Assembly (NCBI GenBank): GCA_034780895.1
Contig: JAUZTB010000057.1
Location: forward strand, 28,611,216-28,672,407
Source of the DNA: Rhynchobatus australiae
Lineage: Eukaryota
Reading direction: 5' to 3'
DNA: 61,192 nucleotides
Numbering within the stretch: the stretch's first letter is position 1; every line of letters begins with the position of its first letter. Of the stretch, positions 55,103-58,100 are shown in pieces. The position numbers are program-made.

Positions 55103-58100
55103 TCAAACACAGTGCACTGCATTGTCTGGCTCTAACCAAGACAACAACTTCAGATATTTTACCATTAATTCTCACCCTCATGCAGGTTTCACTTTAAACT
55201 TAGTCCAATGAAGATTACACAATGTTAGATAATTTAACACAATCACTATTCCCCAAAAAGCCCTAATTCCCATGACTGAAATGAATCTTAAATATTCTTA
55301 TAATTATTTTGTTTTTTTGAAGAAATATGGTGTTCTATTTAGCCAAGACCACCTATTCTGTTTTCATAAAACTTTTAATTTGTCAGTATCATTAAAGAAA
55401 TTCAATTCAGATAAAATATGCGTCGATAAAGGACATGAAGTCATTTTTATATCAGATGGTCAAACTGAAATAATATTCCTAAACTCAAAATGACTTTAAA
55501 TGCTATTTAAAAGATCACAAGAAAGATGAAGAATCCCATTCAGCCAATCCTAGCTCATTTATCTGCAACAAATTCATAGTTCCTCACTACAACAATCACT
55601 GTTTTTGTTTGAAATGATAATGTTCCACATAGATTTTATTTCCCTGGAATATTTTGTTTTTAGAATTCAGAACAGGGGGGGGGTAGACTATTTGGCCCAT
55701 CATGCCTTGGGCAGAACTATCCAATTAATCTCACTCCTCTGCTCTTTTAGCTCTAATTTATCCCTTTCAAATATTTTTCTCATTCTATTTTGGCTACTAC
55801 TAATGATTTTGCTTCCACTACCCTCTCTGGCAGCACATGCCAAATCATGCATTTCACTGGGCATCCTTTTTAATCTTTATTTTGCCTCTGGCTCTTTGCC
55901 TGTTACCTTAAATATACGTCCTCTGGTCGATCCTTTGATGACTAGAGTTTCTCCTTATTCACTCTATTAAAACAATTAATATTTGAAATATCAAATCTCT
56001 GTTCTAAGAACAACCTCGTCTTTTCCCCATTACTTCTTGTAAGCACATAGATGGCGCTGGAGTGTGGCGACTCGTTGCAAGTCTCTACAGATCTACTTAT
56101 TACCCTTACTATAATCATTCTACACTTTTAAAATTAAACTCTACTAACTCTATGTAACTGTGCTGTGTAATGAATTGACCTGATAATAATAAACCAATAA
56201 TTCATGTCTCACAGCCGCATTCCCATTCCAGTACCTCTTCTACACTTTCTCCAAAACCTTGACCTGTCTGTTAATGTGTGGTACTGAACTCTCAAACTTA
56301 GCTGAGGTCTAACTAGTGATTTATAAAGATCTAGAATAATTTCCTCATGTCTGTATTCTATTAACAGCTTAGGTATTTTTCTGAAACAAAATGCTAATTT
56401 GTTCATTTATTTTACTCAGGGAAATGAGCCTAGAAGCTGGATACCACAAGCTCAGCAATATAAAAATGGATGAAACAAACACAAAAAGTGCTGCAATGCC
56501 AATAACCTTTCATACTCAAAACAATAACCCCGTTTTTCTCTCCATGGATGACCTACTGAGTACCTTCTGTTTTTATTTCAAATATCTGATATCTGCTATT
56601 ATATTGCTGTAGTAAGACTTGGTAACTTGCATGCTAAGGTAGCCTGTATTTTCAACCAGATATCACAAAAAAATAGGAAAATAGCAGAAGCAAACACATA
56701 TTCTTCACCTTTTACCAAACTAGTGCTACACCATCATAAACTGATAGTTCACTGAATTCATTGATTCCAACATGCTAGCCACTCTCCAAATAAGGTTCTC
56801 CTTAATTTCCTACTGGATTGCATACTTTTATTTGCATTTTGGAACAACACAGAATCACTGAATTGTTACAGCACAGAAGGAATCTGTGCCAGCTCCAAGT
56901 AGAGTAAAAATGTACCACTATTGCAAAATCCAATAGGTAAAATTAATTGTACCTTGACTTCCTCTTCATACTGAAAGCGTCTTTTGCTGACAATAACATC
57001 TTCAATACCTCTTCTGTCCCCAAATTTTTTCTCAAATACAGTGTAGTTTTTGAAGAGCTCTTGGGCCTGACTTTTGGCAATTCTATCGAGCGCATATTTG
57101 TAGATCACCCTCACTCGATCAAACTGGAAATGAACAAACTCTCAGCAGTAAGTAGAAATACAAGTAAAGAATTTAGATCAACAGCAATAAAAGCAAGACT
57201 AACATTTTTCAGTGGAGGCCTAGTAAGTATCTTACAGTTTGATCATTGTATAATTGCTAATATTACTGATATTACACAAATTGCCATTTCATACAATACC
57301 ATTACTTTTATAATGTTTCATGAAAATTATGGTTTAATCAAAACTGATTTCAAACTGATGAAGTATTTTCTGAACACCAAATTTGTTGTTTGCACACTTT
57401 CAATTTCTTATTTCTTTTGTTTAATGAAGGGATAGATACTTATTTCATTGTACAAGGAATTACAACTGAACCTTACTTTGTACTTGCTTGATGACAGCAA
57501 GTACACAATTTTAGGCAGATATCTCTGGCTAGCTATAAAGGGAACAGCATCTCTTGGTAACAGTACTTTGCACTGCCACCTTGCCATTGGTCTGATTGCA
57601 TTCATCTAACTCACCATGAAACAGAAATCCTGGCTGGCACAGCTGAAGTCCTGAACTGAGTAATATTGTTATATGTTATTGATTTATGCATCTAGCTTCT
57701 GATGCTAGTATTCCATATGATTACAGCTTTCAGCATTCAGCTAAAAGCAATCATATATTTGAATTGTCCTCTTGTGACAANNNNNNNNNNNNNNNNNNNN
57801 NNNNNNNNNNNNNNNNNNNNNNNNNNNNNNNNNNNNNNNNNNNNNNNNNNNNNNNNNNNNNNNNNNNNNNNNNNNNNNNNCCACATAAGTGGCAATCAGA
57901 TTTGATTAGTTATTACTATACCAATAGGAAATCTCAGCTGTATTTCCAATATCTAAAACTGGCCTCAGTACCCTGGATAACTAAACTGAAATCCTCAAGA
58001 GTTCATATACCCAAGACTTTCATTAACATCTACTGGTGGTACTTGGTCATAACGCTCCCAACTATTGAATTGTCACTGTCAAGATACCCTCTTGGTCTTG

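What the first reader, a model, noticed from the sequence alone, without database searches (positions are those of the whole stretch)
56953..57123. Orphan, intact CRNKL1 exon inside PTPN11 intron 1, on the same strand
Seen: a 171-nt open exon with a polypyrimidine/AG acceptor and GT donor, encoding a 57-aa HAT-repeat segment I recognise as CRNKL1. It is on the same ungapped contig (48501-57780) as PTPN11 exons 2-3, and I could find no neighbouring CRNKL1 exon in the window. Known: CRNKL1 is an essential spliceosomal NTC protein and is not linked to PTPN11 in human. Inference: retained intronic flanks argue for DNA-level duplication or capture rather than retroposition of spliced mRNA. The main alternative is a chimeric contig joined through the CR1 or short repeats at about 55670-56610.
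Basis: partly seen in the sequence, partly recalled or inferred. Interest (0 to 1): 0.8.

Follow-up and report, generated by a model that had tools for sequence, protein, structure and literature searches.

The report
Stray CRNKL1 exon in PTPN11 intron
One perfectly intact exon of the splicing-factor gene CRNKL1 sits just upstream of exon 2 of the phosphatase gene PTPN11 in a gap-ridden draft assembly, most likely because two loci were joined by mistake, although a real, very recent copy cannot be excluded.

Summary
Window 57123->56953 (minus strand) is a 171-nt open exon with an AG acceptor and a GT donor. Its 57 residues match human CRNKL1 residues 429-485 (E 1.7e-27) and are 100% identical to a transcript-like CRNKL1 protein in the public set (P0003). 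It lies on the same ungapped 9,280-bp contig and the same strand as PTPN11 exons 2 and 3. PTPN11 exons 2-14 run collinearly through the window. No other CRNKL1 exon is present.

What it means could not be settled, because no eukaryotic genome, read or long-read data were reachable. I favour an assembly chimera (about 0.6):
- The assembly has 22 gaps in 61 kb.
- The exon lies 657 bp from a contig end.
- It shows no decay.
- It would be useless in PTPN11, with stops at codons 4 and 6 in that frame.

Only about 100 nt there is recognisably CR1-like, at 63% identity. No N run or long repeat marks a junction.

A genuine recent DNA-level copy remains possible at about 0.25-0.3. Interest is low unless reads confirm the junction.

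The parts
56953..57123 (-). CRNKL1-type exon, 171 nt / 57 aa, phase 0-0; equals residues 19-75 of the transcript-like protein P0003 and aligns to human CRNKL1 429-485
57124..57148 (-). Acceptor region ctgctgagagtttgttcatttccag|, with the AG at 57125-57124
   Evidence: 13 of 20 pyrimidines upstream of the AG
56941..56952 (-). Donor region |gtacaattaatt. GT is present; +4 to +6 are non-consensus
57149..57780 (-). Intron-like, AT-rich unique sequence upstream of the exon, running to the contig end
   Evidence: no repeat match in the window
57781..57880 (.). 100-N assembly gap that ends the contig 657 bp upstream of the exon; left unfilled
55062..56952 (-). 1,891 bp between the exon and PTPN11 exon 2. 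It must hold the junction under either reading. There is no N run and no long repeat
55751..55863 (-). Degenerate CR1-like LINE 3' fragment in sense orientation
   Evidence: tblastn E 0.001, 1 hit from 15 frame queries; 62.7% over 102 nt, E 2.8e-4
56139..56182 (.). 44-nt stretch 88.6% identical to 12321-12278, which lies 24 bp from the gap at 12345; candidate dispersed repeat
54939..55061 (-). PTPN11 exon 2 (123 nt, N-SH2 first half)
53235..53429 (-). PTPN11 exon 3 (195 nt, N-SH2 second half)
61140..61153 (-). Candidate coding part of PTPN11 exon 1 (ATGACAGCGCGATG|gt) in a GC-rich stretch; inferred only

Best explanation
This is an assembly artefact. The exon is the organism's ordinary, functional CRNKL1 exon. 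The end of contig 48501-57780 comes from the real CRNKL1 locus. That end starts at a junction somewhere in 55062-56952 and runs to 57780. The assembler or gap closer joined it wrongly to PTPN11 intron 1. On this reading nothing biological happens here. The true CRNKL1 locus in this assembly should lack these 57 codons or break at this point.

Shown: the identity of the exon, its intactness, its position, and the state of the assembly. Inferred: the misjoin itself.
For: 1. The assembly is a fragmented draft. It has 22 N runs in 61,192 bp. By my arithmetic, the median ungapped piece is about 2.1 kb. The piece holding the exon is the longest at 9,280 bp, and the exon is 657 bp from its end.
2. 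The exon shows no decay. It is 57 of 57 identical to P0003, a 441-aa CRNKL1 ORF on a 1,561-nt contig that runs straight into the neighbouring exons, so it looks like a transcript. The ORF is open, the splice signals are present, and the limits match 3 of 3 genomic ORFs from other species and the start of the whale-shark model.
3. Only one junction is needed, because the contig ends before any second one.
4. The exon has no use in PTPN11. In the frame set by the 14 coding nt of the candidate exon 1, it has stops at codons 4 and 6.
5. The rest of the window is a clean, collinear PTPN11 locus, exons 2-14, so this is the one foreign coding piece.
6. The interval holds dispersed repeat material: a CR1-like fragment, and a 44-nt match to sequence 24 bp from another gap.
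Against: - No N run separates the exon from PTPN11 exon 2.
- No long or high-identity repeat that would explain a misjoin is visible. blastn of 55062-57780 against the whole window gave only one 44-nt hit.
- The CR1-like piece is the most degenerate copy in the window: 62.7% over 102 nt, against 57-83% over 47-533 nt among the other copies.
- The supposed CR1 ORF at 56212-56406 has no credible relative.
- A 61-kb window cannot show genome-wide repeat copy number, so this evidence is weak in both directions.
- No read-level evidence was available.
Confidence: 0.6

Rival explanations
1. This is a genuine, very recent DNA-level duplication. A fragment of at least 0.8 kb of the CRNKL1 gene (exon plus intron flanks) was copied into PTPN11 intron 1 in sense orientation, for example as filler DNA at a break or by template switching. 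It is a non-processed gene fragment. If spliced into PTPN11 mRNA it would act as a poison cassette exon.
For: - The sequence from PTPN11 exon 2 to the exon is ungapped.
- No recognisable long repeat lies at any candidate junction.
- The intron flanks and splice signals are retained, which rules out a spliced-mRNA origin.
- The exon has stops at codons 4 and 6 in the PTPN11 frame, so it could be tolerated only as a skipped or NMD exon.
Against: - There is no sign of age. All 57 residues are identical to the transcript-like P0003, so the event would have to be very recent.
- The second junction is not seen, because the contig ends 657 bp upstream.
- No target-site duplication or terminal repeats were found in 55062-60669.
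- Draft-assembly misjoins are, by my own estimate, at least as common as such copies.
Confidence: 0.22
2. This is LINE-assisted retroposition of unspliced CRNKL1 pre-mRNA. A CR1-type element lying in sense orientation in the CRNKL1 intron downstream of this exon supplied the 3' tail that a CR1 reverse transcriptase recognises. Reverse transcription then ran 5'-ward through the intron, the exon and the upstream intron (a 5' read-through or transduction). The copied block was inserted into PTPN11 intron 1.
For: A CR1-like 3' fragment lies about 1.1 kb downstream of the exon in the same orientation (55751-55863, minus). That is the geometry this model needs. The window carries about ten CR1-like copies, so the family has been active in this genome.
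Against: - The CR1-like piece is short and very degenerate (62.7% over 102 nt).
- Its 3' end could not be placed.
- The intervening ORF I took for CR1 found no relatives.
- No target-site duplication was found.
- That CR1-type enzymes depend on the element's 3' tail is recalled knowledge, not tested here.
Confidence: 0.06
3. CRNKL1 truly neighbours or overlaps the 5' part of PTPN11 in this species, and this exon is in its native place.
For: Only the same-strand position of the exon on the same contig.
Against: - None of the other CRNKL1 exons is in the 61 kb. The best remaining tblastn E is 1.2, using a 704-aa full-length query and two partial ones.
- Downstream exons would have to sit among the PTPN11 exons.
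Confidence: 0.03

Closest known systems
Chimeric contig or misjoin in a short-read draft assembly
   Same: There is a foreign but perfectly normal piece of a single-copy gene at the end of a contig. The assembly has a gap about every 2-3 kb, and dispersed repeat fragments lie in the interval.
   Different: No N run and no long, high-identity repeat is visible at a junction. Read support could not be examined.
Non-processed (duplicated) pseudogene fragment lying in an intron of an unrelated gene
   Same: A single exon with its intron flanks, away from the parent gene, with no coding use in the host gene.
   Different: Such fragments usually show substitutions, indels or lost splice sites. This one shows none at protein level. 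A second, parental copy was not demonstrated.
Exon shuffling by LINE transduction (L1 3' transduction; recalled literature, with only search listings seen)
   Same: A LINE-type fragment lies next to the moved genomic segment in the same orientation.
   Different: The moved segment lies 5' of the LINE piece, not 3'. The element is CR1-like, not L1. No poly-A tail or target-site duplication was found.
Gene-fragment capture hotspots (bioRxiv 10.1101/2025.10.28.685065, Drosophila affinis; only the search listing and the start of the abstract were seen)
   Same: DNA-level relocation of pieces of genes from elsewhere in the genome.
   Different: Here there is a single fragment, no cluster of fragments, in a vertebrate intron. 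Its reality is unproven.
Processed retrocopy of CRNKL1
   Same: It is CRNKL1-derived sequence away from the parent gene.
   Different: Homology covers only one exon and stops exactly at the exon limits, and splice signals are kept. It is not a member of this kind.

Membership tests
CRNKL1 (crooked neck-like 1) coding exon | Significant sequence match to CRNKL1 proteins over the whole exon | tested here: met
   PDB phmmer gives E 1.7e-27 over query residues 1-57 against human CRNKL1 429-485. 737 proteins with E <= 1e-10 among 753 candidates; of the 120 listed, nearly every one that carries a source name is named crooked neck / CRNKL1, and many have no name.
CRNKL1 (crooked neck-like 1) coding exon | Exon limits as in the orthologous gene of other vertebrates | tested here: met
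   3 of 3 genomic-type ORFs read Q|FERV...EEEVK|V. The whale-shark partial model starts at FDRV. tblastn homology ends at the same bases.
CRNKL1 (crooked neck-like 1) coding exon | HAT-repeat or Suf-type Pfam domain above the curated cut-off | tested here: inconclusive
   PF05843 Suf scores 15.4 bits against a cut-off of 24.7. A 57-aa piece is too short to pass on its own.
Processed retrocopy | Neighbouring exons fused without introns | tested here: not met
   Residues 1-18 and 76-441 of P0003 have no counterpart next to the exon or anywhere in the window. Splice signals flank the exon.
Duplicated (non-processed) gene fragment | A second, parental copy of the same exon and flanks at the CRNKL1 locus of the same genome | not testable with these tools
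   No eukaryotic genome collection was available. The search with the 91-aa ORF found no protein 100% identical over its length among 116 hits.
Chimeric contig | No reads or read pairs span the junction, and the CRNKL1 locus lacks this exon | not testable with these tools
   No reads and no assembly were available. 0 of 9 ORFs tiling 55272-57605 are in the protein collection.
Chimeric contig | A repeat shared by both loci at the junction | tested here: inconclusive
   Only a 44-nt, 88.6% match and a roughly 100-nt CR1-like piece at 62.7%. Genome-wide copy number is unknown.
LINE-mediated transduction | The moved block ends at the LINE 3' terminus and is flanked by a target-site duplication | tested here: inconclusive
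   A CR1-like piece is present in sense orientation, but its 3' end was not placed. No convincing direct repeat was found in 55062-60669, and the 5' end lies beyond the gap.
DNA-transposon capture (Pack-MULE or Helitron type) | Terminal inverted repeats or other element ends flanking the captured exon | tested here: not met
   Only two inverted pairs of 17-19 nt at 82-84%, which is chance level. The caveat is the gap at 57781-57880.
PTPN11 (SHP2) locus | SH2-SH2-phosphatase exons in order, closer to PTPN11 than to PTPN6 | tested here: met
   Pfam profile positions run collinearly: SH2 1-41/38-77, SH2 1-54/55-77, then Y_phosphatase 11-233. For PDB, exon 3 gives E 2.6e-51 against PTPN11 and 4.3e-31 against PTPN6; exon 13 gives 5.8e-27 and 4e-18.

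The most novel reading that the evidence does not exclude
The junction is real. A very recent DNA-level copy, or a CR1 read-through copy, of one CRNKL1 exon with its intron flanks and working splice signals landed in sense orientation in intron 1 of PTPN11. There it can be spliced in as a poison cassette exon, with stops at codons 4 and 6 of the PTPN11 frame. That would give a dosage-sensitive signalling gene a new NMD switch.
Probability: 0.25. Interest if true: 0.45.

Novelty: not a real feature. Interest (0 to 1): 0.2.

Why it matters
If it is an artefact, as I think most likely, the matter is practical. Annotation of this assembly will give a CRNKL1 model that lacks 57 residues or is split. 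PTPN11 intron 1 will carry a spurious exon. Synteny or gene-fusion screens could report a false CRNKL1-PTPN11 link.

If it is real, it would be a clean, datable example of exon-sized DNA capture into the intron of an unrelated gene in a slowly evolving vertebrate genome. It would also offer a testable consequence: inclusion of a stop-bearing exon in PTPN11 transcripts. That would be a modest curiosity, not a new kind of system.

Tried and rejected
1. Other CRNKL1 exons in the window. tblastn with three CRNKL1 proteins found none.
2. Same-species genomic ORFs in the protein collection, to see whether one or two versions of the flanks exist. The 91-aa ORF found 116 hits, none 100% identical over its length. 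Exact look-up of 9 ATG-started ORFs tiling 55272-57605 found 0 of 9. No independent evidence either way.
3. A repeat at the junction.
   - blastn of 55062-57780 against the window gave one 44-nt hit.
   - Tandem repeats: one 25-nt array at 57664-57688.
   - Three-frame CR1 queries: 1 hit from 15.
   - A sensitive nucleotide search gave 62.7% over 102 nt.
4. My own reading of 56212-56406 as a CR1 ORF piece is rejected. The only hit (E 1.9e-5) among 1.84 billion representatives is a tandem-repeat protein that I judge spurious.
5. Terminal inverted repeats or a target-site duplication around the exon: none convincing.
6. A structured RNA or tRNA-derived SINE that could tag the locus: Rfam 0 matches in 53000-61192, and 0 tRNAs in the window.
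7. A strict pattern for the start of PTPN11 exon 1 found nothing. The candidate was found by reading the sequence.
8. Annotated elasmobranch CRNKL1 models lacking exactly this exon. The search with P0003 covered only lengths of 242-772 aa. The only cartilaginous-fish entries it listed were the whale-shark partial and Callorhinchus.
9. Composition shift across the interval: none that is sharp.
10. Literature.
   - 96 papers held at least 2 of CRNKL1 / PTPN11 / shark, and none of the 10 listed held both gene names.
   - 1 paper held CRNKL1, PTPN11 and intron. Its title concerns neuroblastoma drivers; only the listing was seen.

Full report
WHAT IS THERE

Window 57123->56953 is 171 nt and translates without a stop to 57 residues, FDRV...EEEVK.
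- On the minus strand it is preceded by ...gtttgttcatttccag|, with 13 of 20 pyrimidines before the AG.
- It is followed by |gtacaattaatt. That donor has GT after an AAG exon end, but +4 to +6 do not fit the GTRAGT consensus as I recall it.
- phmmer against PDB sequences puts the peptide on human CRNKL1 residues 429-485 (5mqf_O), E 1.7e-27, covering query residues 1-57. By my count from that alignment, 51 of 57 residues are identical.
- Pfam alone is below threshold: Suf, 15.4 bits against 24.7. That is expected for so short a piece.

THE EXON LIMITS ARE THOSE OF THE REAL GENE

A search of the large protein set for longer proteins gave 737 hits with E <= 1e-10 among 753 candidates.
- The best by identity is P0003, at 100% identity and 100% coverage. 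It is a 441-aa ORF on a 1,561-nt contig from an unnamed source.
- P0003 runs without interruption from the preceding exon (...FEEKQKE) through these 57 residues into the following ones (ANPHNYDAWF...). I therefore take it for a spliced transcript.
- Whale shark and Callorhinchus are 96% identical over the exon.
- The whale-shark partial model begins exactly at FDRV.
- Three of three short genomic-type ORFs that I fetched read ...Q|FERV...EEEVK|V..., which is cag|exon|gt.
- tblastn of P0003, P0006 and P0017 against the whole window gives one significant hit each (E 2.8e-30, 3.9e-29, 3.4e-28), all ending at 56953 and 57123/57126. The next best hits have E >= 1.2.

So the exon is real CRNKL1 sequence, it is alone in the window, and it is not part of a processed retrocopy.

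THE SURROUNDINGS

The window has 22 N runs; 9 of them are exactly 100 N.
- The exon lies on the ungapped piece 48501-57780. At 9,280 bp this is the longest piece in the window. By my arithmetic, the median piece is about 2.1 kb.
- The exon is 657 bp from the end of that piece.
- On the same strand of the same piece lie PTPN11 exon 2 (55061-54939, 123 nt) and exon 3 (53429-53235, 195 nt).
- Further minus-strand ORFs carry PTPN11 exons 4 to 14 in descending order, from 48139 down to 16613.
- Pfam places them collinearly on SH2, SH2 and Y_phosphatase.
- Two exons searched singly against PDB sequences prefer PTPN11 to PTPN6: 2.6e-51 against 4.3e-31, and 5.8e-27 against 4e-18.

I searched each exon on its own.

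A candidate PTPN11 exon 1 (ATGACAGCGCGATG followed by gt, 61153-61140, minus strand) lies in the GC-rich end of the window. It is an inference from resemblance to the start of the gene as I recall it. With it, the CRNKL1 exon lies in intron 1.

The organism is probably a cartilaginous fish. The closest named relatives of P0003 are whale shark (94% over 95% of the query) and Callorhinchus (91%). I took no contig for human.

WHAT THE EXON WOULD DO IN PTPN11

The candidate exon 1 contributes 14 coding nucleotides, so a following exon is read from its second base. Translating 57122->56953, one contiguous stretch of the window, gives LIE*G*...: stops at codons 4 and 6. Inclusion would truncate SHP2 after a few residues. 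The exon has no coding use here. At most it could be a poison exon.

REAL OR MISJOINED?

This is the question that matters, and the tools could not answer it directly. No eukaryotic genome, read or contig collection was available.

Indirect routes gave nothing:
- The 91-aa ORF across the exon found 116 proteins. None was 100% identical over its length, so there is no same-species genomic ORF to compare flanks with.
- 0 of 9 ATG-started ORFs tiling 55272-57605 are in the collection.

Within the window, the 1,891 bp between the exon and PTPN11 exon 2 contains:
- no N run;
- no tandem array; the only one found lies upstream of the exon, at 57664-57688;
- one dispersed match, 56139-56182 against 12321-12278, 88.6% over 44 nt. 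The partner lies 24 bp from the gap at 12345.

- Of 15 three-frame queries made from five other CR1-like copies, one hit the interval (55765-55863, E 0.001).
- At nucleotide level the best match is 62.7% over 102 nt (55751-55851, E 2.8e-4). The other copies in the window match each other at 57-83% over 47-533 nt.
- The ORF at 56212-56406, which I first read as CR1 from a recalled motif, has a single hit among 1.84 billion representatives. That hit is a tandem-repeat protein that I judge spurious.
- No inverted or direct repeats suggest a transposon or a target-site duplication.
- There is no Rfam family in 53000-61192 and no tRNA in the window.

WEIGHING

For a misjoin:
- the fragmentation of the assembly;
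- the place of the exon near a contig end, so that only one false junction is needed;
- the complete absence of decay, with all 57 residues identical to the transcript-like P0003, an open frame, and splice signals and limits conserved;
- the lack of any use in the host gene;
- the fact that every other coding piece in 61 kb belongs to PTPN11.

Against a misjoin:
- the join is ungapped;
- I see no repeat long or similar enough to explain it, although a 61-kb window says little about genome-wide repeats.

A very young duplicate would look the same in every test I could run. By my own rough reckoning of how often each occurs, which is an estimate and not a computation, I put the artefact at about 0.6. 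A real DNA-level copy is at about 0.22. A CR1 read-through retrocopy of unspliced pre-mRNA is at about 0.06; the sense-oriented CR1-like piece downstream fits its geometry, but it is weakly supported. A native CRNKL1 position is at about 0.03.

LITERATURE

- No paper linking the two genes in this way turned up. One search found 96 papers holding at least two of CRNKL1 / PTPN11 / shark, and none of the 10 listed held both gene names. One search found one paper holding CRNKL1, PTPN11 and intron; its title concerns neuroblastoma drivers, and only the listing was seen.
- In PMC10620051 I read two passages. One states that a zebra-shark linked-read assembly was further scaffolded with RNA-seq read pairs. 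This shows that such second-stage scaffolding is used for elasmobranch drafts. Whether the fixed 100-N gaps here come from such a step is unknown.
- For exon shuffling by retrotransposition and for gene-fragment hotspots, I saw only the search listing and the starts of abstracts.
- Supplementary files were not consulted.

VERDICT

Interest is low until reads or an independent assembly confirm the junction.

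Noticed in passing
window 61140-61153 (minus) with 55061 (start of exon 2): The candidate PTPN11 exon 1 ends ...CGATG|gt and exon 2 starts G|TGG. The fifth codon would therefore be TGG (Trp), giving MTARWW... where I recall MTSRRW... in other vertebrates. This could be a real substitution, a sequencing error in a GC-rich end piece, or a wrong exon 1.
   Followed up: partly
whole window, N runs (for example 12345-12444, 47497-47596, 57781-57880): 9 of the 22 N runs are exactly 100 N; the others range from 3 to 346. 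This suggests two scaffolding stages, one with estimated gaps and one with a fixed spacer. The gap next to the CRNKL1 exon is of the fixed kind.
   Followed up: partly
window 12278-12321 and 56139-56182: The two sites share a 44-nt stretch (88.6% identical, with an exact 20-mer). The first copy lies 24 bp from a contig end, so this is probably a dispersed repeat of unidentified family.
   Followed up: partly
window about 1820-1867, 17824-18054, 19063-19113, 21980-22126, 25547-25588, 41636-41791, 42677-43063, 46697-46861, 47132-47224, 48848-49075, 58433-58810: About ten degraded CR1-like LINE 3' fragments on both strands are scattered through the PTPN11 introns. By eye (not tested), reverse-transcriptase-like ORFs lie at 50298-50558 (+) and 19957-20481 (-).
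   Followed up: partly
window 50761-50833 and 51591-51663: An inverted repeat with 73-nt arms, 81% complementary and 757 nt apart, lies in PTPN11 intron 3. It may be a pair of repeat copies or a foldback element.
   Followed up: no
window 1-1200: The start of the window has unusually long minus-strand ORFs, for example 796-311 (162 aa), rich in Arg, Gly and Pro. It lies beyond the 3' part of PTPN11 and may be a GC-rich island or the end of a neighbouring gene.
   Followed up: no
protein P0308 (hit): The only hit for the ORF 56212-56406 is a 273-aa protein made of five near-identical tandem units of about 54 aa. The match recurs in each unit at 28-33% identity, and I take it for chance.
   Followed up: yes
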